Shown: positions 1,130-14,018 of the stretch, piece by piece
How the letters are laid out: each line of letters opens with the position of its first letter
Position numbering within the stretch: the first letter of the stretch is position 1
IMG/VR virus record: IMGVR_UViG_2690316152_000014
Direction: 5' to 3' (one strand)
Origin: a virus
Lineage: Duplodnaviria > Heunggongvirae > Uroviricota > Caudoviricetes
DNA: 14,138 nt
Program-made: the position numbers and the translations under genes
The notes under the pieces: generated by a model
Database searches by the model: none
What the model was told of the DNA's origin: nothing
What the model saw: only the letters and a program-made list of their open reading frames with translations

Positions 1130-1166
1130 CCCCTATCGTTATAATACACGGTAGGGGCGTTTTTGT
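1130..1166 (+). terminator. Rho-independent terminator candidate (loop holds a TATAAT hexamer)
   Basis: Stem CCCCTATCG/CGGTAGGGG (one G-U pair), 10-nt loop TTATAATACA, then CGTTTTTGTTT. Confidence 0.5.
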
Positions 1167-1177
1167 TTGGAAATGGT

Positions 1178-2860
1178 ATGAAAACTAAACTGTATTCGTA
1201 TATTCGCTTCTCTTCCATGAAGCAAGCAGATGGTAGTTCATTTGAACGCCAGAAGAGAACAGCGAAAGAGATAGCCGCAAAATATGATCTTGAGCTAGTT
1301 ACTTCCTATCAAGATTTCGGTGTATCTGCATTCAAAGGAGCTAACAGTAAAACAGGTGCATTATCTCGTTTTCTGGATGAGATTGGTCGATCCGTTCCGG
1401 TTGGTAGCTGGCTGGTGGTGGAAAACTTAGACCGTATCTCCCGTCAATCTGTTATTGAAGCTCAAGAGCTATTCCTTTCAATCATCCGCAGGGGAATAAC
1501 AATTGTTACTGGTATGGATGGGAAGGTCTATAGCAAAGAATCGGTTAATGCTAATCCCATCGATTTACTATTGAGTGTAATGTTGTTTGCTCGTGCAAAT
1601 GAGGAAAGTCAGACTAAACGCAATCGCACTAACTCAAGCGCACTACTCAAGGTTAAAGCCCATCAGGAGAATCCACAAAATCCGGCAGTGGCAATCGAGG
1701 AAATTGGTCGCAATATATGGTGGGCTGATACTTCATCGGGTTATGTGCTTCCACATCCGGTGTATTTTCCTGTTATCAAGAAAATCGTTGAATTAAAACA
1801 GAATGGTTATTCTAATGGTCGGGTTCTTGATTATCTGAATGAAAGAATCACCCCGCCTAATTACACAACGAACAAAGATACCCCTAAGAAATGGGCGCGT
1901 TCTATGTTAGCCAGGATGTTCTCTAACCGCGCTTTGCTTGGTATCAAAGAGATAACCATTGAAGGTGTGACATATGAGTTAAAGGATTATTACCCACGAG
2001 TGATGGAAGATGCCGAGTTCTATCAACTCAAGAAGACTATAGGACTGAGGTCGTTTTCTTATCCCACTAAGTCTAGTCCTGTTATTACCCTGTTAAGTGG
2101 TGCTGGCTTGCTTCGATGTGGTCATTGTGGGGCAAGTATGGTTAAGAGAAGCGGAGCATCAAAAGAGAGATTAGCCCAATATCGTTATATGTGCGATGGC
2201 GCAGATAGCAGGAGGACTAATTGTGATCATCCAAATTGGGGCTTTCGTGGTGATCAACTGGATAAGGCTGTATTGCAATTGCTGGCTGATAAAATCTGGA
2301 TTGCTGAGGATAAGGCTAATCCGATCCCAGGTATGCAAGCCCAGATTGAAGACATTTCACGCAAGATTGATAACCTGATTAGTCTTTCTGCAATGACAGG
2401 AGCAACGAAGGAACTAGCCGATCAGATTACTACCCTGAATCATGAGCGTGAGACCATCTATAACCAGATTAAGGTAATAGAAGAGAACATGTATTCAGTT
2501 GATTCTCAAGGCTGGGAGAAGCTAGCACAATTTGATTTAGAGGATGTTTGCAGCGAGGAACGGTTAAAAGTTCGATTGAAGATTAAAGAAGCTGTTAAGT
2601 CTATAAATTGTTACAAGATTGATACCAATTATAATCATTTTTTAATGGAGTACATCGACGGGAAGACACAAAGGATAGTGATCGAGAGGTCACGCCGTAA
2701 CAGGAAAGGGAGAATTTTTGTAGACGTGAAGACTATCAATGATAGGCAGATTCTGGAGAGCAACGGGCTTGTTCTGCATCCATGTTTAGACATGCTGACA
2801 GATAAGAACTGGAAACCGGAGGAAGAAATACCAGGTCCATTACAGGAATTTGGAATTTAA
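1178..2860 (+). CDS. large serine recombinase (probable phage integrase)
   Basis: N-terminal resolvase-type catalytic motifs: YIRFSSMKQ (catalytic Ser), SFERQ, and LVVENLDRISR. C-terminal zinc-ribbon cysteines (LLRCGHCG ... YMCDG ... NCDH) followed by coiled-coil-like sequence. Start set to the ATG at 1178; the track's 1163 is a TTG. Confidence 0.88.
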   Translation: MKTKLYSYIRFSSMKQADGSSFERQKRTAKEIAAKYDLELVTSYQDFGVSAFKGANSKTGALSRFLDEIGRSVPVGSWLVVENLDRISRQSVIEAQELFLSIIRRGITIVTGMDGKVYSKESVNANPIDLLLSVMLFARANEESQTKRNRTNSSALLKVKAHQENPQNPAVAIEEIGRNIWWADTSSGYVLPHPVYFPVIKKIVELKQNGYSNGRVLDYLNERITPPNYTTNKDTPKKWARSMLARMFSNRALLGIKEITIEGVTYELKDYYPRVMEDAEFYQLKKTIGLRSFSYPTKSSPVITLLSGAGLLRCGHCGASMVKRSGASKERLAQYRYMCDGADSRRTNCDHPNWGFRGDQLDKAVLQLLADKIWIAEDKANPIPGMQAQIEDISRKIDNLISLSAMTGATKELADQITTLNHERETIYNQIKVIEENMYSVDSQGWEKLAQFDLEDVCSEERLKVRLKIKEAVKSINCYKIDTNYNHFLMEYIDGKTQRIVIERSRRNRKGRIFVDVKTINDRQILESNGLVLHPCLDMLTDKNWKPEEEIPGPLQEFGI

Positions 2861-2929: not shown

Positions 2930-3925
2930 TTACGCGGCCTCTAAGGGGCTTAAATCAAGTTCTAGGTCTTCCGGTTCCAACTCGGCTAATGGCATTGAGT
3001 GCATCATAGCGAAATCACGTTCTATATCATCTTCGGTTATGTAGTCTTCTGGGTTGATTTCGAAATCAGCATCAAAATATATTGGTTCGGGCGAATTGTT
3101 ATAAATGTACTCCTGTATGAATTTTTTCACATCATCCATTTTGCTGATTGGTAAAGTTTCAGTATAACCACGAGACATTAATTTACGACTAATCCGCTTA
3201 CCTTTGATGTGTTTTTTGATGCCACTTTCTAAATCACCAGCTTTCCAGCCGCAATCAAACGTGTGTGAATATTCAAGGGATAATATTTCATCGGTGTATC
3301 TTTGAGTTTCATACATTCGACGTAGTGGATTTTTGCGCGTAGTTATACCAAATTTTAAAAATTTTTCTCCTACACGAAAAACATAAAAAATAACTGGTCG
3401 ATGTGTATCTTTGTTCATCAAAGCATGTTGTTTCCCGTTTGAAAGAGCAGTTATAGCGCCACGTATAAGAGGACAAGTTAAACTCCCCCGATTACGACTA
3501 CTAAACAAATCGGCTTTGTTGTATATTTTACCATGACAATTACATTTTAGTTTTAGATGGGTTGTTATTCCTCTGTATGGTTCGGCTAGCCCTAAAACAT
3601 CCCAGCCAATCTTATTAAAGAAATTGGTTGAAACTTGTATGTACTCATGTTCTGTATACATGCAAGGTTTCTTATATGTTGGGTGATGGTCTTTTCCTGT
3701 AAACTTACCCATTAAGACACGTTGTAATAAAGGAGTTTTAACTTTATCGCCAACTTTTATATAAACTTTTGTTCGCTGGAATGGCTTATGGATAGGTAGA
3801 ACGAATCCCCCATAAATCCATCCATTAGATTTACATTGGTCAACAACCATTGATTCATATTCAGATGGGCTTTTAGCCGTTGATTTTTTGATGAAAGGAA
3901 TATCTTTAGCAAAAACGGTTTTCAT
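2930..3925 (-). CDS. Cys-rich GIY-YIG-like (T5orf172-like) putative homing endonuclease, paralog A
   Basis: ATG at 3925 with GAGGA RBS. Segment VIFYVFRVGEKFLKFGITT resembles a GIY-x(10)-YIG signature. Cys/His clusters upstream (LKLKCNCHG, LTCPL). Acidic C-terminal tail. Clearly paralogous to the 5053-6090 protein (shared WIYGGFVLP/LIYHGFVMP, KFGIT/KYGIT, GYTET). Confidence 0.55.
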   Translation of the reverse strand: MKTVFAKDIPFIKKSTAKSPSEYESMVVDQCKSNGWIYGGFVLPIHKPFQRTKVYIKVGDKVKTPLLQRVLMGKFTGKDHHPTYKKPCMYTEHEYIQVSTNFFNKIGWDVLGLAEPYRGITTHLKLKCNCHGKIYNKADLFSSRNRGSLTCPLIRGAITALSNGKQHALMNKDTHRPVIFYVFRVGEKFLKFGITTRKNPLRRMYETQRYTDEILSLEYSHTFDCGWKAGDLESGIKKHIKGKRISRKLMSRGYTETLPISKMDDVKKFIQEYIYNNSPEPIYFDADFEINPEDYITEDDIERDFAMMHSMPLAELEPEDLELDLSPLEAA

Positions 3926-3996
3926 AATAGCGAATCCTCATAAATTAAATTCACTATTATTTATTAGTATTTTTCTTGATAATAAAGATTGTTATT

Positions 3997-4668
3997 ATGT
4001 GTGATATTAAAATTAGCTTCATCAATTATAGCCATGTGAAAATTGATTATTCTCCTTCCATTGCAATGGAATTGAGAGATTATTTTAGCTTTGAAGTGGA
4101 AGGAGCCAGATTTAGTCCCAGATACAAATATTCGGGCTGGGATGGTCGTATTAGACTTTTTACCTATGAAAATTTGATGCCTATTGGCTTAGTTCGAATG
4201 GTTAGCGTGTTTTCAAAAAATATGGGTTATAGTGTTTTGATAGACCCTAGACTTTTGGAGCGGGAAAATGTCGATGAAAAGGAAATCGAAAAATGGTGCA
4301 ATGTCCTAGAATTATATTCTGGTGCTAACAGAGTTACCCCGCACTGGTATCAATCAAAAGCAGTCTTTGAAGGTATTCATCATAAACGTAGAATGTTAGT
4401 TCTTCCTACGTCCGCTGGCAAATCTGCTATCGCTTGTATGTTATCTCGTTGGTACTTAGAGAACTACGAAGGCAAAGTGTTGATCATTGTCCCGACGACC
4501 TCGCTTGTTCTCCAGATGCGGGATGATTTTGTTGATTATCGCCAGTTTCCTTATGAAGCTATTCATACTATCATGAGCGGTACTAGTAAGCATGTAGGGG
4601 ATCGCCTGATTGTTGTCAGTACATGGCAATCCGCTTGTAAACAGCCTCGTGAATGGTTTAAACAATAA
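3997..4668 (+). CDS. uvsW: UvsW-like SF2 DNA helicase, N-terminal fragment (223 aa), stops just before motif II; likely a gene remnant
   Basis: Collinear with the T4 UvsW N-terminus as recalled from memory: N-terminal domain, PHWYQ, Walker A LPTSAGKS, YLENYEGKVLIIVPTT, and WQS..KQPREWF. The ORF stops immediately before the expected DECH box. Start set to ATG 3997 (the track's 3976 is TTG). Confidence 0.7.
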   Translation: MCDIKISFINYSHVKIDYSPSIAMELRDYFSFEVEGARFSPRYKYSGWDGRIRLFTYENLMPIGLVRMVSVFSKNMGYSVLIDPRLLERENVDEKEIEKWCNVLELYSGANRVTPHWYQSKAVFEGIHHKRRMLVLPTSAGKSAIACMLSRWYLENYEGKVLIIVPTTSLVLQMRDDFVDYRQFPYEAIHTIMSGTSKHVGDRLIVVSTWQSACKQPREWFKQ

Positions 4669-4697: not shown

Positions 4698-5051
4698 TTA
4701 TCCATACCAGCGGGATTTAGTGGAACGGCTATCAATATGGGTAAAGGTTTTATATTTGCCTAAGCCATATTGATTAGGATATTTGCTATCTAGATACGCG
4801 TGAACAATATCAGGCGAGACACCTTTCACTACAATATCTGCGGCCTTGCCCGTGATATGAATCGAACGAGAAGCACCACCAACTTTCTTATTGTGTGCCG
4901 GACAACGGTTAGCACTGTTAATAACTACTGGTTTCCCGAAGTGTTCGCGTACATCCTCAAGAATTGCCAGTAATTCCGCGTCTACGGTATCTTGTCCGCA
5001 CTTTCCACATTTGCATTCAAATTCCTTGCGAGAAAAATGTTTGCTTAACAT
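4698..5051 (-). CDS. peptidase M15-family protein (zinc D-Ala-D-Ala carboxypeptidase-like); possible cell-wall hydrolase
   Basis: Motifs SANRCPAHNKKVGGASRSIH, GKAADI and FTHID fit the H...D...H zinc site of M15 peptidases. N-terminal CKCGKC cluster. Start is 1 nt after the stop of the upstream paralog-B gene, with a GGGGG SD. Confidence 0.6.
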   Translation of the reverse strand: MLSKHFSRKEFECKCGKCGQDTVDAELLAILEDVREHFGKPVVINSANRCPAHNKKVGGASRSIHITGKAADIVVKGVSPDIVHAYLDSKYPNQYGLGKYKTFTHIDSRSTKSRWYG

Positions 5052-5052
5052 A

Positions 5053-6090
5053 TTACCCCCTATATGTAATTTTATAGTTGTTGGAGTTTTTACAAAAATC
5101 CATTGCCATTTTTCTAATCTGCGCTTCTTTGGTTATGTCACATGTTTCTGTATATCCGTCTGGGATTAGTTCTTTTGGTGCAGCGTGACTTCCTATGTTA
5201 TGTTTTACGGAATATTCTAGGTCATTGGCAACTTTTCCGTCACCGAAAGTTATATACCACAATAACTTGTGAGATAATCCTGACTCTCTTGATTGTTGTG
5301 TGATTCTCTTTTGTGGGTTTAGGTGATTTGTTATTCCATATTTGATATAATCGCCTACTTGCTGGACATAGAAAACACCTGGTTTACTTTTGTTATACCC
5401 ACTCTTAGAACAGCACGGACAACCATCGTTTTCGTAAACCAAACCATACGCAACAATAGTATCTGATATATGGCCTTTTTCACACTTTAGTTTTAGTTTT
5501 GACATAGCCAAAATTGGGGATTTAGGTCGTTTTATTAATTTGAGTCTCTTTTCTTTGCACCCGTCTTCAATTAATCCCAACCATTCGTCGTCTGTGTGCT
5601 TTCTCTTATTAATTCCTCTCTTAATTGACCCACAATGACGGCACCCAGCATCATTGTTTATGATTCTTGTGATTATCGTTTCGTATGTGGTGTTACAACA
5701 AGTGCATTTATATGATGCCTTTGTATCAAGCCCTTTATATTCTTCCAACAAACCAACTAAAACCATCTCTTTACGTTCTAATACATTGCTTGCTTTGGTG
5801 AGAATGGTTTCTTCGTCTCTATTATTTTTCTTTGGTAGTTTTAAAGAATCTCTATAACATTCAATACAAGCACCTTGTTTCTTAAGGGATTTGAATACTA
5901 TCGTTCTTGATGTGTTGTGTTTTTTGCAAGTTACATAAACGTGTGTATATTGACCTTTCCACGGCATGACGAAGCCATGATAAATCAAACCTAATTCACC
6001 ACATCGTTTAATTGCAATTGTTTCATAGTCGTGCGGAGTTTTTCTTTTGAATCCGGTGTAATCGATATATTCAGCAAATAAAACTTCCAT
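5053..6090 (-). CDS. Cys-rich GIY-YIG-like (T5orf172-like) putative homing endonuclease, paralog B
   Basis: Three Cys-rich modules (KRCG..VTCKKH..CIEC; KCTCC..GCRHCG; LKCEKGH..GCPCC), then GVFYVQQVGDYIKYGIT (GIY-YIG-like) and DGYTET. GGGGGA SD upstream of ATG 6090. Confidence 0.55.
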   Translation of the reverse strand: MEVLFAEYIDYTGFKRKTPHDYETIAIKRCGELGLIYHGFVMPWKGQYTHVYVTCKKHNTSRTIVFKSLKKQGACIECYRDSLKLPKKNNRDEETILTKASNVLERKEMVLVGLLEEYKGLDTKASYKCTCCNTTYETIITRIINNDAGCRHCGSIKRGINKRKHTDDEWLGLIEDGCKEKRLKLIKRPKSPILAMSKLKLKCEKGHISDTIVAYGLVYENDGCPCCSKSGYNKSKPGVFYVQQVGDYIKYGITNHLNPQKRITQQSRESGLSHKLLWYITFGDGKVANDLEYSVKHNIGSHAAPKELIPDGYTETCDITKEAQIRKMAMDFCKNSNNYKITYRG

Positions 6091-7684: not shown

Positions 7685-7726
7685 TACGCCCCCGATATTT
7701 TTATAATTTAATGGCAGAATTATTTA

Positions 7727-7769
7727 GATAAAAATAATCCCGCCTAATCACAAAGTATTAAGCGGGATT
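7727..7769 (-). terminator. hairpin terminator candidate downstream of the J-like gene
   Basis: On the minus strand: AATCCCGCTTAA ... TTAGGCGGGATT stem-loop followed by ATTTTTATC. The long loop lowers confidence. Confidence 0.35.
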
Positions 7770-7787
7770 TATTATTAAATTAAATTG

Positions 7788-10700
7788 TTAACGAATAGAA
7801 ATACCAGAAGTGGCTTTTTTAGCGACCATCACAACAACATCGGTCGCACTACCCGATCTACGGGTTGAAACAGGCCATGCTTTAAACTCTAAAGTCACGC
7901 TACCCTTACCCGCTGGCATGTCTATAACGCTACTGTATGCAATAGGTATTGGTCCGCCTGATTCTAATGCTTTCAGTAAAGTACCATTTTTACGCACTTC
8001 TAAACGCATACGGCTATACCCGGTTCTGCCCGGATTATCACCAGTTCCTGCAATATCGTATTCAGCGCCAGCAACAATAATTGGCGGAATGATGATTTGA
8101 CGGTCAAATTTATGGTCATCATTGATCGTTACGGTAACAGCACCATCAGGAACACCAGCATCACCTAAAGTAGCAGCACCACGAGGAAACGCCTTAGATA
8201 CAGTCTTAACAAAATCACCGCGTACCTGAGTAGCTTCTAACATACCCTTAATAACACAGGATTCGTTAATCGTGACGTTGTTCAGAGTACCGGAATCAGC
8301 CGTGATATTACCTTTGATTTTGGCATTCATGAACGTAGCGGACCCGTTCTTGTTGATATGCCATCCGGTAGATCCGTTCCAGTTGGAAGACTGGATATAG
8401 TTACCGATTTTAGCGTTATCAATTGCACCGTTTACAATCTTGGCGTTAGTGATCGCCCCGTCCTGAATCTTCGCGCTATTAATTGCAGCATTGCCGATTT
8501 TAGCCGTGGTGATTGCCGCATCAGTAATCTGGGCTGTGCCGATTGAGGCATTACGGATCATGGACCAGTCCATATACACCTTGTTTCCTTCGACACCAAA
8601 CGGAACAACACCCGCCGCGCCATCCTGTGGAGCTACCACCAGCTTATCAGCCGTAAAGATGATTTTAGTCGGTTGTGCCGGATCGTTAGTTGCGCTCATG
8701 TGAATACCAGCCACACGACCATCTGCATTAACTGCAAGATTGTATTTGCTGTTAATGGTTCCCTTCAAAGCATCGATCTTAACGTCCGCTTCTTGGTTAA
8801 CACCAGCAATCTTGCCATCCATTTCTACCCGAACTTGATCAATCTTACTTGCGCTTGCTGCCTCACTGGTTGCAATTGCTTGTTTCAGGGTAGTAGCAGA
8901 TGCGCTAACTTCTTTGGTGATATCACCTTTCAATTCAGCTTTAACCTGATCAATCTTAGTGGAGCTAGCTTGATCACCAGAGACAATCAGACTCTTAAGA
9001 GTATCGGCTGAGGCTTGGACCGTCTGTCCTGTTTCAGTAGTGATTTGCTTGTGCATTGCATCAATTTTAGCATCGGCATTTTCGCCAGCTTGAGCAATAG
9101 CATCAGCGATAGTTTCATCTAAGCGATCTTGTAAACCAATCAGGTCTTCCAGTGCTTCTTTGTCCTGATCTTCCCAACTAATCGAAGATTTCATAGACAT
9201 GAAATACGGTTCAGACCAGACAGCATCATCCATGCCGAAAATATCGTAGTGAGCACCACGGATATAATAATCACCATCAGCCAAATCAAAGGAAGTATGG
9301 CTAACACTATTCGTGCTTACTGCCCTTGCATCGGAGAAAGTGTTATCGGTTGCATACTGGATGATTGACCCTGCATAGTCATGTTCTACGTCATCTGTCC
9401 AGCTAACAAACGCAGTATTAAAGCCACCACGCGCACTAAAACCTTTCATCGGCTTATGCTGTGGGTTGATAGCCACTAAACGCGCTGGGGCGCTCTCTGA
9501 GTTGTTATATCCTTTAACCGATACTTCCACCGTCAGTTGACGCGAAAGGCCGTTAAACTGGTTCATATCAAGCGTATAAGTCCATGATTCAGGATCGCGG
9601 GTACGGTACTGAATAGACTTACCAGCCTTGTTAGTAACCTTGATAATGTATGCTTCAAACAGGTCACTAAACTTGTTAGCTTCGCCGTTGATCATCACAT
9701 CTAAGCCTTGCTGGTTATCCCATTCGATAATCAGATCATTACCTTCGAAAGTGCCAGCCGTGCTACCCTGATTTTTGATTCGAATAGTCGGAGTCGGCAA
9801 TTCATAGGTAACAGTAGGATTCTGGTTAATCAGTTCTACCCAATCGGATCGCGCGATGATACCGAAAGCACAAATACGGTAATCGTAAGAACGATCTTTA
9901 GCCAGTGCATTGACATTGAAGATTTGCTGTGAAGTCTGACCCAGCTTAATCCAGTTAGGTGATCCGCTTACACGATAATCAATCTGGAAACCATAACGGT
10001 TAAAATCTTCCGGTGCATCCCATGTCAAAGTAACGTTTTTACCGTAAATCGTCTCGCCAGTTGCCTTAATTCTGAAATTAGTAGGCTTCTGTACTGTCAT
10101 TGAATCCGGTAAACCACTTGGTCTATTGTCTGGAGTTGCCGCATAGTTCAGGTCAGTATAAACCTGAGAATTATATTCTGTAGCGGTGATAGTCATCATC
10201 CCAGCAATACCAGAATCAATCGAGCGATCAATTGCGGTAATACGCCATAAAGAATTATTCAGTTTTAATTCATCATAGGTTACGCTAATAACATCCCATA
10301 CTTCGGCAGTGAATGCGTCAGTAGTCATAAAGCTGATAACCTGAGTGATACGAGATTTATTTCGTTCAATGCTCGCTAGTTTATCAATCTGGTCTTTAGA
10401 CTTAACGAAACGATATTCTACATCCTTAGCAATAATTCGACCATCTGCGCGAACAGTAGCATCGTTTTCAGCATCAGCCGGATAACGTAGCATTTGCTCC
10501 GAATAGTCGATTGATGGTTCTTGATATACCGCGTTAATGGTATTGAAATAACCGTTAGTACCACCAGTTTTAAGGGATACTTTACCCATCATAATATTGT
10601 CTTCATTGAAGGTATGCTTAACAATATCAGGAGCATCCAGTTTCAGAGTAATTCTTCCGAAGGATTCGAACATTACCCCGCCGAAAGTCTGCATTAATCC

Positions 10701-11567
10701 GGTTAAGTTCTCTTTAAAGCTGGCGTTCGGATCACATGCACCGTTTGAATGTAGATCCATCTGGCGTACTTGTTTACGCACTTTCAGGAATGAATCAACG
10801 TTAATGTTTTCAATTGGTACACTAAGACCATATTTTGTATTTGTCAGATAATGGAAAATCTGATCCACGCCGTTAGTGCTTGCCTCAATAGCATTGGTTT
10901 CAAGGTTACGGATTTTAAGGCCGCAAACGTCTACTGTTACCTGGCTATTCGTTTGCAGAATATCAACACCAGCAGCCAGAGATTTGTCATCACGGCGTAA
11001 AACAATACACATGGTCGCAATACCGTTACCCTTGTAAGCATCGGTCCAGTCTGAGCCTAAATGATGTTTAGCCAGTGACAATGCGGTGTTAGGATTCTTA
11101 CCCGTGCGAAACTCAACTTCTAAAACTTTGCGGTATTCGTCTTTAATGTTGCCCTTATCGAGTACACCATCACGGATCGTCATGTTCTTACCGACCAACA
11201 CATTTTTATTATCGATAAAGAGTGCTTTGTAATGGTCGATTTCACCCTCTGCAACAGAAAAGATTTGCACTAACTTATTGTTTTCTTTCTTAGAAATAGC
11301 TTTGTAAACGCAGTTTGTGCCAGTACGGGTAACACCAAAAAGAACGGGTACTACTGTTTTTGGATCGGTTGATGTTCCTAGTGTCACCGCATTATCTGGG
11401 CTTTGTACTTTAGGCGTTTTTGGCGTAGCAGCTACGGAAGCAATCAAGGTCATTGCACCAGCAGCCATACCGATAGCAACTGCGGTCATAACAGAGAATG
11501 TTGCAGCAGCAGCCATCCCAGCAGATGCACCCGCAATAACCGCACCTACTAATACTTCAATTCCCAT
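7788..11567 (-). CDS. lambda J-like central tail fiber / host specificity protein (1259 aa) with an N-terminal extension resembling the C-terminus of tail assembly protein I
   Basis: Size and position after the K-like gene. C-terminal ~200 aa match my recollection of the lambda J receptor-binding region (SGTLNNVTINE, DDHKFDRQIIIP, VIDMPAGKG, VVVMVAKKATSGISI). N-terminal Gly/Ala-rich hydrophobic segment and VVPVLFG motif resemble the gpI C-terminus. ATG at 11567 overlaps the upstream stop (TAATG). Confidence 0.85.
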   Translation of the reverse strand: MGIEVLVGAVIAGASAGMAAAATFSVMTAVAIGMAAGAMTLIASVAATPKTPKVQSPDNAVTLGTSTDPKTVVPVLFGVTRTGTNCVYKAISKKENNKLVQIFSVAEGEIDHYKALFIDNKNVLVGKNMTIRDGVLDKGNIKDEYRKVLEVEFRTGKNPNTALSLAKHHLGSDWTDAYKGNGIATMCIVLRRDDKSLAAGVDILQTNSQVTVDVCGLKIRNLETNAIEASTNGVDQIFHYLTNTKYGLSVPIENINVDSFLKVRKQVRQMDLHSNGACDPNASFKENLTGLMQTFGGVMFESFGRITLKLDAPDIVKHTFNEDNIMMGKVSLKTGGTNGYFNTINAVYQEPSIDYSEQMLRYPADAENDATVRADGRIIAKDVEYRFVKSKDQIDKLASIERNKSRITQVISFMTTDAFTAEVWDVISVTYDELKLNNSLWRITAIDRSIDSGIAGMMTITATEYNSQVYTDLNYAATPDNRPSGLPDSMTVQKPTNFRIKATGETIYGKNVTLTWDAPEDFNRYGFQIDYRVSGSPNWIKLGQTSQQIFNVNALAKDRSYDYRICAFGIIARSDWVELINQNPTVTYELPTPTIRIKNQGSTAGTFEGNDLIIEWDNQQGLDVMINGEANKFSDLFEAYIIKVTNKAGKSIQYRTRDPESWTYTLDMNQFNGLSRQLTVEVSVKGYNNSESAPARLVAINPQHKPMKGFSARGGFNTAFVSWTDDVEHDYAGSIIQYATDNTFSDARAVSTNSVSHTSFDLADGDYYIRGAHYDIFGMDDAVWSEPYFMSMKSSISWEDQDKEALEDLIGLQDRLDETIADAIAQAGENADAKIDAMHKQITTETGQTVQASADTLKSLIVSGDQASSTKIDQVKAELKGDITKEVSASATTLKQAIATSEAASASKIDQVRVEMDGKIAGVNQEADVKIDALKGTINSKYNLAVNADGRVAGIHMSATNDPAQPTKIIFTADKLVVAPQDGAAGVVPFGVEGNKVYMDWSMIRNASIGTAQITDAAITTAKIGNAAINSAKIQDGAITNAKIVNGAIDNAKIGNYIQSSNWNGSTGWHINKNGSATFMNAKIKGNITADSGTLNNVTINESCVIKGMLEATQVRGDFVKTVSKAFPRGAATLGDAGVPDGAVTVTINDDHKFDRQIIIPPIIVAGAEYDIAGTGDNPGRTGYSRMRLEVRKNGTLLKALESGGPIPIAYSSVIDMPAGKGSVTLEFKAWPVSTRRSGSATDVVVMVAKKATSGISIR
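8395..8545 (-). repeat. in-frame tandem short repeats inside the J-like gene, encoding (D/N)(A/G)AI(T/N)x-AKI(G/Q/V) units
   Basis: Protein segment TAQITDAAITTAKIGNAAINSAKIQDGAITNAKIVNGAIDNAKIGN. Matching DNA repeats of GCCGATTTTAGC / CGCGAAGATTCAGGA type were read by eye; coordinates are approximate. Confidence 0.45.
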
Positions 11568-11986
11568 TATTCACCCCCGAATCTATAAACTTGTTCATAG
11601 TCAATGTCTGAAACAGGAACGGTCATCCAGATACCATCTTCGGTAATAAGGCCATAACCGGAATAATGAGGAACTACGGAATAATAATTGCGGTTTCCTA
11701 ACTTGTGAGCGGTAACTAATAAGTCGCCGTCCTGTAAATCATCAGTGACTAATTTGAAATGCTTCTTAATTGGTTGAAGGATGTTTGTATATCCGCTTAA
11801 TTCTTTGCAGACTTTCAAGCCTTCTTCTTTCGTAGAATATTTTTTATAAAGAGAATCATGCAGGTCAGTACCAGCGAGAATATCGATGATCTTACATGCA
11901 ATTAAATTGCAATCATTCTCACCTTGAACGAACTCCTGACCTACTAATGAATTGATATAATCGGTGATAAGCCTAGTTTTTAGCAT
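11567..11986 (-). CDS. tail assembly protein K-like, NlpC/P60-type domain only (139 aa)
   Basis: GENDCNLIACKI resembles the catalytic-Cys motif of NlpC/P60 and of the gpK C-terminal domain; a His lies downstream (PHYSG). No JAMM/MPN HxH motif. Start chosen at ATG 11986 with GGAGG 8 nt upstream; the track's longer ORF (start 12142) overlaps the preceding gene by about 110 nt. Confidence 0.6.
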   Translation of the reverse strand: MLKTRLITDYINSLVGQEFVQGENDCNLIACKIIDILAGTDLHDSLYKKYSTKEEGLKVCKELSGYTNILQPIKKHFKLVTDDLQDGDLLVTAHKLGNRNYYSVVPHYSGYGLITEDGIWMTVPVSDIDYEQVYRFGGE

Positions 11987-12032
11987 GTTGAATACCTCCA
12001 TGCAGTTATTTACTAGGCTTAGGGAGAAGGGA

Positions 12033-12686
12033 TTATTTTTTAGAAGAATGCCACTTGCTTTCTGAGTTCCACTTCCCGGCACGAGAGAAGAATAGATCGT
12101 TCTCGTTTCCAACATAGGATCGGTGGATACCATCGGAAGCATGACTACGGGCGTTTTTATCTAGAACTTCCCAGATACTATTAAGCTGAAATTCTGATTC
12201 GTTTTTACACTCATCATCTTCATGTTCGATGTTAATCCCGATGGAATCGACTACCCCACGGAAAACAGGGTAAGTAGTTTCAACCTTGCCCGTGTTAGGG
12301 TTCAGGAACACCATTTCGATTTTTACATCAGATTTATCGAATTGCTTGTTTCGAATCAGGGTGATGTATTCCTCGCGAACGTTAGAAACGGTTACGTTAA
12401 TCCCGTTGTTGTTGATCTCCTTCTCTTCGGTATTCGATGAGATTTGAAGAAAATCACCCGTTGCGAGATATGTAAAACCGTTGTAGTCCAAATCGAAATA
12501 CCCATCAGTAAGCCGTAGAACGTCCCCTGACGCGGTGACTGCTTCGATAATGTAAAACATCGATCCAGTGGAGAAAAGCTGTGGTAACGTCAATTTAGAC
12601 ACGTTCTGACCTGTCTGGTCGTTGTAGACCTCGATGAAGTCCAGATTAGTGCATAGTTTGCTGAATGATTCCTGAATAGTTGCCAT
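12033..12686 (-). CDS. minor tail protein (gpL position; 217 aa)
   Basis: Synteny between the upstream minor tail protein and the K-like gene. Start ATG 12686 overlaps the upstream stop (TAATG), with GGAG upstream. Unlike lambda gpL there is no C-terminal Cys cluster, so the assignment is positional. Confidence 0.5.
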   Translation of the reverse strand: MATIQESFSKLCTNLDFIEVYNDQTGQNVSKLTLPQLFSTGSMFYIIEAVTASGDVLRLTDGYFDLDYNGFTYLATGDFLQISSNTEEKEINNNGINVTVSNVREEYITLIRNKQFDKSDVKIEMVFLNPNTGKVETTYPVFRGVVDSIGINIEHEDDECKNESEFQLNSIWEVLDKNARSHASDGIHRSYVGNENDLFFSRAGKWNSESKWHSSKK

Positions 12687-13246
12687 TATACATTCTCCAC
12701 TAATTCGAATTTCATCTTGCCAATCTGGGCGATCTTCCAATCGATTTCTTCGGTTTTGAGAAGAAATTCACCCTCAACGTTCTGATACTTGACTACCTCA
12801 CCCGCTAGAACATGCTGACGCAAGTTAGGAAAGAGTTTCATTTCACCACCTGATTTCACGTCTTCGGTGATCGTGTAGATTTTCTTGTGGTTCTCAAACT
12901 GTACAATCGTTCCCGCTTTCAGTGTTCCGGTGAAGTTGGAGAGTCTTACCTTACGCCCACCACGGTCAGTACGAGCAGCAGCCGTAACCATCTGGCGTAC
13001 ATCACCTGTATATTTTGAAAAGTAAGATAGTGGCACACTGAAAGGACGACCAAAAAGGTGACGTGCTACAAATTCTTTTACTTCGTTAATATCCTGAGCC
13101 ATGAAATTAGCTGTAAATTCTGCTTCATAAAAATGAATGCCAGTAAAGCGACGCTGGAACTTACCAGAAATAGATTGCGCCTTGAAGAAAGGCTGTTTTG
13201 ATTTAAGAGTAAAATCTGTGATTTTAATATTCTTGGATTTGAACAT
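12686..13246 (-). CDS. minor/distal tail protein (gpM or Dit position; 186 aa)
   Basis: First gene after the tape-measure-like ORF. Its GGGGG SD lies inside the 3' arm of a 12-bp hairpin. Assignment is positional only. Confidence 0.5.
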   Translation of the reverse strand: MFKSKNIKITDFTLKSKQPFFKAQSISGKFQRRFTGIHFYEAEFTANFMAQDINEVKEFVARHLFGRPFSVPLSYFSKYTGDVRQMVTAAARTDRGGRKVRLSNFTGTLKAGTIVQFENHKKIYTITEDVKSGGEMKLFPNLRQHVLAGEVVKYQNVEGEFLLKTEEIDWKIAQIGKMKFELVENV

Positions 13247-13296: not shown

Positions 13297-14018
13297 TTAC
13301 ATCTTACGACGCTGGACGTCTTCTACATGCTGCGCAACTAATTTAGCATGACGTTTGATAGCATCCATGACCATCTTGTCTGAGCTATTAACGTTGCCGT
13401 TAATGTTCAAAGGCGCATTAACTTCAATCGGCTGAGAGTTGCCGCCTGATTTTTGAGCAGATAAGAAGTCTTTCAAATCACCGTTAGTACGCTGATCAAC
13501 TACTCGTTCACCCTTATCAAGCAACCATGTACCCTCACGCGGGATGTTATCGATACCATCATGCGCCATACCACTAACGTTAGTAGACTTGATGTTAGCA
13601 ATGCTTCCCATGTTCTGAGCAACAGCCAAAGCACTAGCGGCGATCTTCTGTCCTGTGGTTACGTTGGTCGGATCGTTCCATGCATCGGTGGCAGCCGTCC
13701 ACATGTTCACCGTCGCTTGCCCGATAGAGAATGCTTTATGAGCATTAAAAGCCATTTGCATAGCTTTAGTGTTTTCCTGCCCGAAAAGAGTCATTGCAGC
13801 AGAAAAACCACTGTACATATCATCGGCTATTGACTGGCGAGCATCAGCATATTTCTTCTCAATTGCAGCCATCCGTTTTTGATGGTTTTCGTTGAGTTTT
13901 TCTAATGCAGCCATCCGTTTAGCCGGATCATTAATACCATCGATCTTAAGACTTTCGGTCTTATAGTCTTGTTCAGCTTCCGATTTCTCTTTATCGATTG
14001 CATTAAATTTAGCAAACG
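13297..14018 (-). pseudogene. tail tape-measure-like protein, C-terminal fragment; 5' part cut off by an IS insertion
   Basis: The frame stays open upstream of Met 13914 to the IS junction at 14018/14019 and meets a stop only inside the IS (TAG at 14044-14046 on the minus strand). Ala-rich, helical composition and the position upstream of the M/L/K/J-type genes suggest a tape measure protein by synteny. Confidence 0.5.

What the first reader, a model, noticed from the sequence alone, without database searches (positions are those of the whole stretch)
8395..8545. Tandem short repeats inside the J-like gene
About six consecutive units of an xAKIxNGAI-type motif are encoded by near-repeated DNA just upstream of the receptor-binding domain. 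Such repeats can form fibrous beta-structure and are prone to slippage or recombination, which could alter fibre length or host range.
Basis: seen in the sequence. Interest (0 to 1): 0.35.

Follow-up and report, generated by a model that had tools for sequence, protein, structure and literature searches.

The report
Pentad repeat spacer in phage tail fibre
The repeat is real: eleven five-residue units inside a prophage tail-fibre gene that most likely build a short rigid beta-helix rod just above the receptor-binding tip. It is a conserved structural spacer, not an unstable repeat.

Summary
On the minus strand, the 1259-aa J-like central tail fibre gene (7788-11567) encodes 11 consecutive pentads x-I-x-x-A. 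That equals 5.5 decapeptides of type AIxxAKIxxG, at aa 1003-1057 (window 8397-8561). The array lies 65 aa upstream of the lambda/434-type receptor-binding domain.

The DNA periodicity is real: identity at a 30-nt offset is 0.585 against 0.315 after codon shuffling. However, it equals what the peptide sequence alone imposes (0.587). The longest exact repeated word is 11 nt, and Tandem Repeats Finder reports nothing here.

The copy number is the same in 119 of 120 homologue clusters and in a phage only 40% identical overall. There is one clean 60-nt in-register deletion variant. Across the wider superfamily (8,858 representative clusters), arrays that end in the same anchor motif span 4 to 64 pentads.

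Homology to the F-pyocin central fibre and the position in the lambda fibre both point to a trimeric beta-helix/prism spacer. The AlphaFold monomer model matches no pentapeptide-repeat fold, which fits this reading.

The slippage-prone idea is largely not supported. This is an ordinary member of a known kind.

The parts
7788..11567 (-). J-like central tail fibre / tail tip gene, 1259 aa (the stop codon is 7788-7790)
   Evidence: ORF list and translation. Pfam Phage_Tail_Tip aa 931-1029 and Ig_GpJ_C aa 1123-1258. PHROG tail fibre families. It sits downstream of tape-measure, distal-tail and hub-like genes. 120 homologues in E. coli, Salmonella and Providencia prophages.
8397..8561 (-). The repeat: 11 pentads x-I-x-x-(A/G), aa 1003-1057, equal to 5.5 decapeptides AIxxAKIxxG. 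Proposed beta-helix spacer of the trimeric fibre.
   Evidence: Pentad table. Periodicity statistics. Ten of the eleven core Ile (aa 1009-1054) and seven of the position-5 Ala/Gly (1012-1032, 1047, 1052) are invariant in 19 diverse homologues. Sequence match to the F2-pyocin fibre, SU10 needle and gp24 J-like protein.
8562..8762 (-). Core of the Phage_Tail_Tip (formerly DUF1983) domain, aa 936-1002. Proposed non-switching upper beta-prism strands.
   Evidence: Pfam PF09327. A single sequence type in all 121 family members. The equivalent lambda J segment is VAGIGLS...GNQIFMND. The structural role is inferred from PMC12874032.
8763..9167 (-). Ala/Asp/Lys/Gln-rich segment, aa 801-935. Presumed alpha-helical shaft (coiled coil); length-polymorphic in the family.
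   Evidence: Aligns to the coiled-coil parts of 9l9p_S, 7z4b_EA and 23gd_D. Lengths of 98, 102 or 135 aa among homologues. No coiled-coil predictor was run, so the helical state is inferred.
8202..8396 (-). Stem, aa 1058-1122 (IQSSNWNGSTGWHINKNG...). From aa 1068 it is homologous to lambda J 946 onward (the lower central straight fibre).
   Evidence: PDB sequence alignments to 9wca_J, 8xcj_Z and 8iyk_J start at aa 1068. The module is linked to the distal half of the repeat across the family.
7791..8201 (-). Ig-like receptor-binding domain, aa 1123-1259, about 60% identical to phage 434-type J.
   Evidence: Pfam PF12421, 85.4 bits against a cut-off of 26.2. tblastn hits to 434, mEp460 and lambdoid J at about 60%. 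The RBD type is unique among 121 homologues. DNA identity to the nearest relative falls to 0.65-0.75 over 7820-8240.

Best explanation
The tract is a protein-level structural repeat. Eleven pentads (x-I-x-x-A/G, alternating AIxxA and KIxxG) lie in the distal shaft of a trimeric J-like central tail fibre.

Most likely the three chains wind around the three-fold axis as an intertwined triangular beta-helix or narrow prism. Each pentad would form one short strand. The invariant Ile would stack in the core, and the invariant Ala/Gly would sit at the tight corners.

The array joins the upper beta-prism of the tail-tip domain, which sits under a long helical shaft, to the lambda-type stem and Ig-like receptor-binding domain. 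It would act as a rigid spacer of fixed length. At about 4.8 A per beta layer, 11 pentads give roughly 5 nm; this is an inference from general beta-sheet geometry.

By analogy with lambda gpJ and the F-pyocin, it would also pass the receptor-binding signal (a twist) from the RBD up to the shaft. That step is inferred, not shown.

Shown here: the repeat, its conservation, its position, its homology and its copy-number behaviour. Inferred: the trimeric intertwined geometry, the length estimate and the signal transmission.
For: 1. Pattern and selection. Ile occurs every 5 residues and Ala/Gly three residues after it, and most of these positions are invariant in 19 homologues at 70-97% identity while the other positions vary. 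Against phage DCP80 (40% identical overall) the tract reaches 90% amino-acid identity. Identical residues there use the same codon in only 14-37% of cases, so this is purifying selection on the peptide, not recent transfer.

2. Homology to fibre segments with structural data.
- The F2-pyocin fibre 25vf_A residues 1137-1189 align to the last pentads plus the anchor (E 6e-5). gp24 J-like 23gd_D (E 8e-6), 9l9p_S, and the SU10 needle 7z4b_EA residues 229-292 also match.
- In the F7 pyocin central fibre, residues 1119-1167 form 'a short intertwined beta-helix' between two beta-prisms (PMC12874032).
- The SU10 needle C-terminus is modelled as a beta-prism (PMC9509320).

3. Position. Lambda gpJ reads hub - FNIII x2 - alpha-helical shaft - beta-sheet prism - RBD (PMC11101478). 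Between the shared landmarks GNQIFMND / GNKVYMDW and the stem, lambda has about 17 aa and this protein has 65 aa. The AF2 monomer model of aa 930-1259 aligns along its full length to the lambda central fibre chain 8xck_F (Foldseek E 2.8e-18).

5. Spacer behaviour. Arrays ending in the same KIGNxIQSxNW..GW anchor contain 4, 6, 12, 22, 28, 30, 34, 36, 39, 46, 48, 58, 60 or 64 pentads in other proteins, mostly even numbers.
Against: - No multimer prediction or coordinates were available, so the trimeric intertwined geometry is not demonstrated for this protein.
- The mapping of F7 residues 1119-1167 onto the F2 residues that align here assumes similar numbering. I could not check this.
- The MSA used for AF2 was shallow: 19-20 sequences at 50-97% identity.
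- Long arrays of the same motif pass Pfam's Pentapeptide_4 threshold, which leaves a monomeric four-sided solenoid possible.
- Signal transmission is pure analogy.
Confidence: 0.7

Rival explanations
1. Each chain folds on its own into a classical pentapeptide-repeat (Rfr-type) right-handed four-sided beta-helix, with four pentads per coil, as in Qnr, MfpA or HetL. There would be three such solenoids side by side rather than one intertwined helix.
For: - The A-x-I spacing equals the i-2/i pattern of A(D/N)LXX.
- There are weak PDB sequence hits to designed pentapeptide-repeat proteins and NP275-NP276 (E 0.04-0.2).
- Longer arrays of the same motif in relatives score above Pfam Pentapeptide_4 gathering (P0123 92.5 bits, P0129 69.6, P0172 46.9, against a cut-off of 38).
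- Those arrays also hit NCBIfam HetL/Qnr models, but below their cut-offs.
Against: - The tract itself hits no Pfam pentapeptide model even at E<=10.
- The i-1 residue is Lys/Ala, not Asp/Asn.
- Eleven pentads would give only 2.75 coils.
- The distal part of the F7 pyocin central fibre, to whose F2 counterpart this tract aligns, is reported as intertwined.
- The tract lies on the three-fold axis of a trimeric fibre.
Confidence: 0.12
2. The tract is a hypermutable tandem repeat. Replication slippage or unequal recombination between units frequently changes fibre length and thereby host range.
For: - One natural variant (P0094, ENA metagenome) lacks exactly 60 nt (four pentads) between two imperfect AITNAKI copies. 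Its gene is otherwise 98.6% identical upstream to P0076.
- Array length varies from 4 to 64 pentads across the superfamily.
- Some distant proteins carry near-perfect tandem copies such as ANVTTAKIAD x6.
- Four-gamete combinations place a crossover between the shaft and the distal half of the array (the conserved block aa 936-1025), and DNA identity to a type-B relative falls across the proximal pentads.
Against: - There is no DNA identity beyond that forced by the peptide (0.585 observed, 0.587 expected).
- The longest exact repeat is 11 nt, and Tandem Repeats Finder is negative.
- The copy number is identical in 119 of 120 clusters and in a 40%-identical phage.
- Family length polymorphism lies in the shaft, stem and RBD instead.
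- The window's own RBD replacement breakpoint is near 8240 (about aa 1109), outside the array.
Confidence: 0.08
3. The periodicity is a compositional or low-complexity accident with no structural meaning.
For: The segment is rich in Ala, Ile, Asn, Gly and Lys, and BLAST-type filters may treat it as low complexity.
Against: - 0 of 5000 codon shuffles reach the observed periodicity.
- The conserved register positions are invariant across homologues.
- 8,858 representative clusters match at E<=1e-3, mostly through exactly this stretch.
Confidence: 0.02

Closest known systems
Phage lambda gpJ central tail fibre (PDB 8XCK/8XCJ/8IYK; Ge et al. 2024, PMC11101478)
   Same: Same order of modules at the C-terminal end: tail-tip motif, beta-structured straight fibre, stem, Ig-like RBD. 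Residues 1068-1258 align to lambda J 946-1131 at 41% identity. The full-length AF2 model aligns to 8xck_F.
   Different: Lambda has about 17 residues (VFLKRLTAPTITSGGNPP) where this protein has 65, including the 11-pentad array. The N-terminal 1060 aa are not lambda-like: NCBIfam lambda_TipJ scores 177 bits against a cut-off of 1950, and only over the last 190 aa. The nearest sequenced phage for that part is E. coli phage DCP80, at 40%.
F-type pyocin central fibre protein (F7: He et al. 2026, PMC12874032; F2: PDB 25vf)
   Same: A long coiled-coil shaft is followed by a non-switching beta-prism, a 'short intertwined beta-helix' (F7 residues 1119-1167) and a narrower prism. F2 fibre residues 1137-1189 (..[22 protein letters not shown]..) align to the last pentads and the anchor motif here.
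   Different: The pyocin has only about 4-5 pentads and no lambda-type RBD. Here the array is 11 pentads and the RBD is fused. Fold switching of the shaft has not been tested for this protein.
Pfam PF09327 Phage_Tail_Tip (formerly DUF1983)
   Same: Profile positions 78-133 cover two to four pentads plus the IQSxNW..GW anchor. The tract matches it in 2-3 stretches.
   Different: The profile models a short version. Here the pentad part is expanded, so the profile matches repeatedly rather than once.
Pentapeptide repeat proteins (Pfam Pentapeptide_4 PF13599; Qnr, MfpA, HetL; Rfr fold)
   Same: A five-residue period with a hydrophobic centre and a small residue two positions before it. Long arrays of this motif in relatives pass the Pfam threshold.
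   Different: The i-1 residue is K/A, not D/N. This tract hits no pentapeptide model. The AF2 model does not resemble a four-sided solenoid. The context is a trimeric fibre axis.

Membership tests
J-like central tail fibre / tail tip protein of siphophages | C-terminal Ig-like receptor-binding domain (Pfam PF12421 Ig_GpJ_C) | tested here: met
   85.4 bits against a cut-off of 26.2, aa 1123-1258. PDB sequence hits to lambda and A8 gpJ at E 1e-30 to 1e-38.
J-like central tail fibre / tail tip protein of siphophages | Phage_Tail_Tip domain (PF09327) | tested here: met
   64.3 bits against a cut-off of 22.
J-like central tail fibre / tail tip protein of siphophages | Fibronectin type III domains and N-terminal hub domains (PF13550 Phage-tail_3) | tested here: inconclusive
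   fn3 scores 19.2 bits, below the cut-off of 25. PF13550 does not hit the query and is only precomputed or weak in some homologues.
J-like central tail fibre / tail tip protein of siphophages | Gene position downstream of tape measure, distal tail and hub genes | tested here: met
   PHROG hits: tape measure C-terminus 13297-13914, distal tail protein 12686-13246, tail protein 12033-12740. DUF6950 at 11567-12142.
Lambda TipJ equivalog (NCBIfam NF049904) | Full-length match above the curated cut-off | tested here: not met
   177 bits against a cut-off of 1950, and only aa 1069-1259 align. The protein is a mosaic, not an orthologue of lambda J.
Pentapeptide repeat family (Rfr fold) | Five-residue period with hydrophobic i and small i-2 | tested here: met
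   Ile at i in all 11 pentads. Ala/Gly/Tyr at the position that is i-2 of the next pentad.
Pentapeptide repeat family (Rfr fold) | Asp/Asn at i-1 (consensus A[D/N]LXX) and a Pfam pentapeptide model above gathering | tested here: not met
   i-1 is mostly Lys or Ala. No pentapeptide model is reported for the tract at E<=10. Only longer relatives pass.
Pentapeptide repeat family (Rfr fold) | Right-handed four-sided monomeric beta-helix | tested here: not met
Intertwined trimeric beta-helix of central fibres (as in F7 pyocin 1119-1167) | Sequence homology to the solved segment | tested here: met
   F2-pyocin fibre 25vf_A 1137-1189 aligns at E 6e-5. The F7-to-F2 residue mapping is assumed.
Intertwined trimeric beta-helix of central fibres (as in F7 pyocin 1119-1167) | Three chains intertwined around a common axis | not testable with these tools
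Hypervariable tandem repeat (contingency-type tract) | High DNA identity between units | tested here: not met
   Units are 57% identical. The longest exact repeat is 11 nt. There is no excess over synonymous resampling. Tandem Repeats Finder is negative.
Hypervariable tandem repeat (contingency-type tract) | Copy-number polymorphism among close relatives | tested here: not met
   119 of 120 clusters have the same count. There is one 60-nt deletion.

The most novel reading that the evidence does not exclude
The AIxxAKIxxG pentad/decapeptide motif may define a very large and barely described class of trimeric fibre 'ruler' modules.
- It is present in at least 8,858 representative protein clusters.
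- Arrays ending in the shared anchor motif reach 64 pentads, and one protein carries about 278 pentads in total.
- It occurs in tail proteins of unrelated architectures (Prophage_tail, DUF5907 and F5/8-type-C contexts).

In this reading, pentapeptide-repeat-like sequence is used to build an intertwined three-chain helix rather than the classical monomeric four-sided solenoid. Array length (in steps of two pentads, about 1 nm) would tune how far the receptor-binding tip reaches through the host surface layers. In J-like fibres the array might also help nucleate the coiled-coil-to-prism fold switch of the shaft.
Probability: 0.25. Interest if true: 0.5.

Novelty: new member of a known kind. Interest (0 to 1): 0.25.

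Why it matters
For this locus the result matters mainly as a correction. The repeat is a conserved architectural element, not a variable tract. Host-range change in this prophage family comes from module exchange of the stem and RBD, and the window itself carries an RBD type not seen in 120 relatives.

More generally, the tract links a common E. coli/Salmonella prophage fibre to the recently solved lambda and F-pyocin central fibres. It shows that the short 'intertwined beta-helix' of those fibres is one end of a length series running from a few pentads to about 64. That is useful for fibre engineering and for annotating the many 'hypothetical' giant tail proteins that carry the motif.

Tried and rejected
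- Tandem Repeats Finder over the whole window at minimum score 30 found no array in 8300-8700.
- Megablast of the gene against 50,697 phage records found no match. Only tblastn found relatives.
- Pfam with E<=10 on the isolated tract gave only Phage_Tail_Tip, with no pentapeptide or decapeptide model.
- Supplementary files of He et al. were not held as text, so the F7 sequence could not be aligned residue by residue.
- Literature searches for 'pentapeptide repeat' or 'decapeptide repeat' together with 'tail fiber' found nothing relevant.
- I tested the He et al. fold-switch pattern SxSxxMxxLxS in aa 800-940. It gave 5 matches against 2.9 +/- 1.6 in shuffles (p about 0.16), which is not significant.
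- I considered recent horizontal transfer as the reason for the high conservation with DCP80. It is rejected because synonymous sites are diverged.
- I considered assembly collapse as the cause of the P0094 deletion. It is unlikely because the two repeat copies share only 15 of 20 nt, but it rests on a single metagenome scaffold.
- The plus-strand ORFs 8358-8546 and 8491-8703 overlap the tract. They are taken as spurious because they lie inside the conserved minus-strand gene.
Full report
**1. What is in the sequence**

The finding lies inside a 1259-aa ORF on the minus strand (7788-11567). In that frame the segment reads [55 protein letters not shown].

This is eleven pentads with Ile at position 2 and Ala/Gly at position 5 (Tyr in the last pentad). 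The array covers aa 1003-1057, window 8397-8561.

**2. Is it more than chance, and is the DNA itself repeated?**

- Peptide identity at an offset of 10 residues is 0.56 here. That is the highest value in the protein (median 0.044).
- DNA identity at offsets of 15, 30 and 60 nt is 0.47, 0.585 and 0.60, against about 0.25 at other offsets.
- Codon shuffling gives 0.315, and 0 of 5000 shuffles reach the observed value.
- A sliding measure limits the periodic zone to about 8395-8575.
- When the same peptide is re-encoded with the gene's own codon usage, the expected identity at the 30-nt offset is 0.587 +/- 0.025. This is indistinguishable from the observed 0.585.
- The five full decapeptide units are only 57% identical in DNA. 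The longest exact direct repeat is 11 nt.
- Tandem Repeats Finder reports nothing here, and the repeat finder reports only 12-15 nt families.

So the repeat is old and is maintained at the protein level. It is a poor substrate for slippage.

**3. The gene and its modules**

- Pfam finds Phage_Tail_Tip (aa 931-1029) and the lambda gpJ C-terminal receptor-binding domain (aa 1123-1258). fn3 is sub-threshold.
- Upstream genes are the tape-measure end, a distal tail protein, a hub-like tail protein and DUF6950.
- The window is about 90% identical to prophages found in a minority of E. coli genomes. The 1.8-kb segment 7700-9500, covering the distal third of the gene, matches in 55 of 5,426 complete genomes.
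- The protein is a mosaic. Residues 29-1120 resemble only E. coli phage DCP80 (40%) and, more distantly, Vibrio phages. Residues 1069-1259 are about 60% identical to phage 434-type J, and align to solved lambda and A8 gpJ structures from aa 1068 on.
- It is therefore not a lambda TipJ orthologue: NCBIfam gives 177 bits against a cut-off of 1950.

**4. Where the array sits in a fibre of known structure**

Lambda gpJ ends with two FNIII domains, an alpha-helical shaft, a beta-sheet prism called the central straight fibre, and the RBD (PMC11101478).

Two landmarks are shared: lambda GNQIFMND matches GNKVYMDW here, and lambda AFSLTPDGKLTAKNA matches GWHINKNGSATFMNA here. Between them lambda has about 17 residues and this protein has 65. 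The array is thus an expansion within the straight-fibre part.

An AF2 monomer model of aa 930-1259 has mean pLDDT 71.8, with 70-80 over the array. It aligns over its full length to the lambda central fibre chain 8xck_F (Foldseek E 2.8e-18).

**5. What fold the pentads adopt**

The tract plus its downstream anchor matches four chains with structural data:

| Chain | Protein | Residues matched | E-value |
|---|---|---|---|
| 25vf_A | F2-pyocin central fibre | 1137-1189 | 6e-5 |
| 23gd_D | gp24 J-like protein | 1045-1113 | 8e-6 |
| 9l9p_S | Putative tail fibre protein | 1095-1134 | 0.003 |
| 7z4b_EA | SU10 tail needle | 229-292 | 0.006 |

- The SU10 needle C-terminus is modelled as a beta-prism (PMC9509320).
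- The sequence logic fits. Ten of the eleven core Ile (aa 1009-1054) and seven of the position-5 Ala/Gly are invariant across 19 homologues, while the intervening positions vary.
- He et al. note that small residues occupy the buried corners of such prisms.

The alternative is a classical monomeric pentapeptide-repeat solenoid. It is suggested by the A-x-I spacing, by weak hits to designed pentapeptide proteins, and by the fact that longer arrays in relatives pass Pfam Pentapeptide_4 (92.5, 69.6 and 46.9 bits against a cut-off of 38).

Against this alternative:
- The tract itself hits no pentapeptide model.
- The i-1 residue is Lys/Ala rather than Asp/Asn.

I therefore favour an open spiral that becomes an intertwined three-chain helix in the trimer. 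This could not be shown, because only monomer prediction was available.

**6. Copy number**

- Among 120 homologue clusters (70-87% identity; E. coli, Salmonella, Providencia), 119 have exactly the same number of pentads.
- DCP80, at 40% overall identity, also has eleven. There the tract is the best-conserved part of the C-terminal half: 90% amino-acid identity over aa 1025-1054. Identical residues use the same codon in only 14-37% of cases, so this reflects purifying selection.
- One exception exists. P0094, from an ENA metagenome scaffold, lacks exactly 60 nt (four pentads) between two imperfect AITNAKI-encoding copies (15 of 20 nt shared). Its gene is otherwise 98.6% identical to P0076 over the preceding 2973 nt.
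- Within the family, length differences lie elsewhere: helical shaft 98/102/135 aa, stem 55/68 aa, RBD 121-145 aa.

**7. The wider family**

- A full HMMER scan with aa 930-1125 found 8,858 representative clusters at E<=1e-3. Most match through the pentad stretch, with up to 40 matched stretches per protein.
- Examples include a 4,696-aa protein with about 278 pentads and contiguous runs of 31.
- Proteins whose arrays end in the same KIGNxIQSxNW..GW anchor have 4, 6, 12 (five cases, this lineage included), 22, 28, 30, 34, 36, 39, 46, 48, 58, 60 or 64 pentads. These counts include the preceding YMDWS-type pentad. Nearly all are even, which suggests the decapeptide is the unit of change.
- The motif occurs with Prophage_tail, DUF5907, DUF642 and F5/8-type-C domains as well as with Phage_Tail_Tip, and it matches 17 PHROG families, most annotated as tail proteins.
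- Array length therefore does evolve, but over long times, not within this lineage.

**8. Recombination**

- Clustering the 121 sequences segment by segment shows a single type for the tail-tip core and the first 23 residues of the array.
- The distal 32 residues of the array are strictly linked to the stem type.
- All four combinations occur both of shaft type with distal-array type and of stem type with RBD type.
- DNA identity profiles place one breakpoint class at the proximal end of the array (about 8500-8660, against a type-B relative). They place the window's own RBD replacement at about 8240, roughly 50 codons distal to the array.
- The conserved proximal pentads thus lie in a block where crossovers occur. 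This is ordinary modular exchange of tail fibre genes, not repeat-mediated length change.

**9. Mechanism proposed**

The array is a fixed-length, rigid beta-helical spacer in the trimeric central fibre. Its length would be about 5 nm, assuming each pentad adds one 4.8-A layer; this is an inference.

It connects the prism under the helical shaft to the lambda-type stem and RBD. By analogy with lambda and the F-pyocin, receptor binding would be relayed as a twist through this segment to the shaft. That part is inference.

**10. Verdict**

- The instability part is largely refuted.
- The feature is a new member of a known kind, of modest interest.

Noticed in passing
window 7791-8240 (-), aa about 1109-1259: The receptor-binding module of this copy is a type found in none of the 120 homologue clusters. 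DNA identity to the nearest E. coli prophage drops from about 0.9 to 0.65-0.75 across it, then recovers downstream of the stop codon. This suggests a recent RBD cassette replacement by a 434-like (about 60% identical) domain.
   Followed up: partly
window 8763-9167 (-), aa 801-935: The presumed helical shaft is length-polymorphic among homologues (98, 102 or 135 aa). It contains an internal duplication, ASSTKIDQVKAE at aa 867 and ASASKIDQVRVE at aa 904, 37 aa apart. It holds five matches to the SxSxxMxxLxS pattern that He et al. link to coiled-coil-to-prism fold switching, but this is not significant against shuffles (p about 0.16).
   Followed up: partly
window 11427-11567 (-), aa 1-47: The J-like protein starts with a roughly 47-residue Ala/Gly/Ile-rich hydrophobic segment (MGIEVLVGAVIAGASAGMAAAATFSVMTAVAIGMAAGAMTLIASVAA) that looks like two membrane-type helices. 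It is also present in phage DCP80. Its role was not examined.
   Followed up: no
L002 (ENA ERZ28564691 scaffold_4849) compared with L003: A natural variant has a clean 60-nt in-frame loss of four pentads between imperfect AITNAKI copies. It is the only copy-number variant among 120 clusters, and it rests on a single metagenome scaffold.
   Followed up: yes
P0121, P0123, P0129, P0130, P0132: Giant proteins (up to 4,696 aa) carry hundreds of the same pentads. Some lineages have near-perfect tandem decapeptides (ANVTTAKIAD x6), which implies recent expansion there. Long arrays pass Pfam Pentapeptide_4.
   Followed up: partly
window 1163-2860 (+), 3976-4668 (+), 5053-6090 (-), 2930-3925 (-), 4698-5051 (-): The distal prophage arm carries a large serine recombinase (Resolvase + Recombinase + Zn ribbon) and a 230-aa UvsW-like helicase N-terminal piece that may be truncated. 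It also has two phrog_681 endonuclease-like ORFs, one with a CapR domain, and a 117-aa endolysin-like peptidase.
   Followed up: no
whole window against E. coli genomes: 5,805 records match some part of the window, although the 7700-9500 segment of the fibre gene matches in only 55 genomes. Some segment of the window must therefore be very widespread, possibly a mobile element. It was not located.
   Followed up: no
L001, PQ671644.1 Escherichia phage DCP80: The record is classified as Straboviridae/Tevenvirinae (a T4-like myovirus lineage). Yet it carries the closest phage homologue of this siphovirus-type J-like tail tip protein, in a 141-kb genome. The taxonomy label or the genome type deserves a check.
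   Followed up: no
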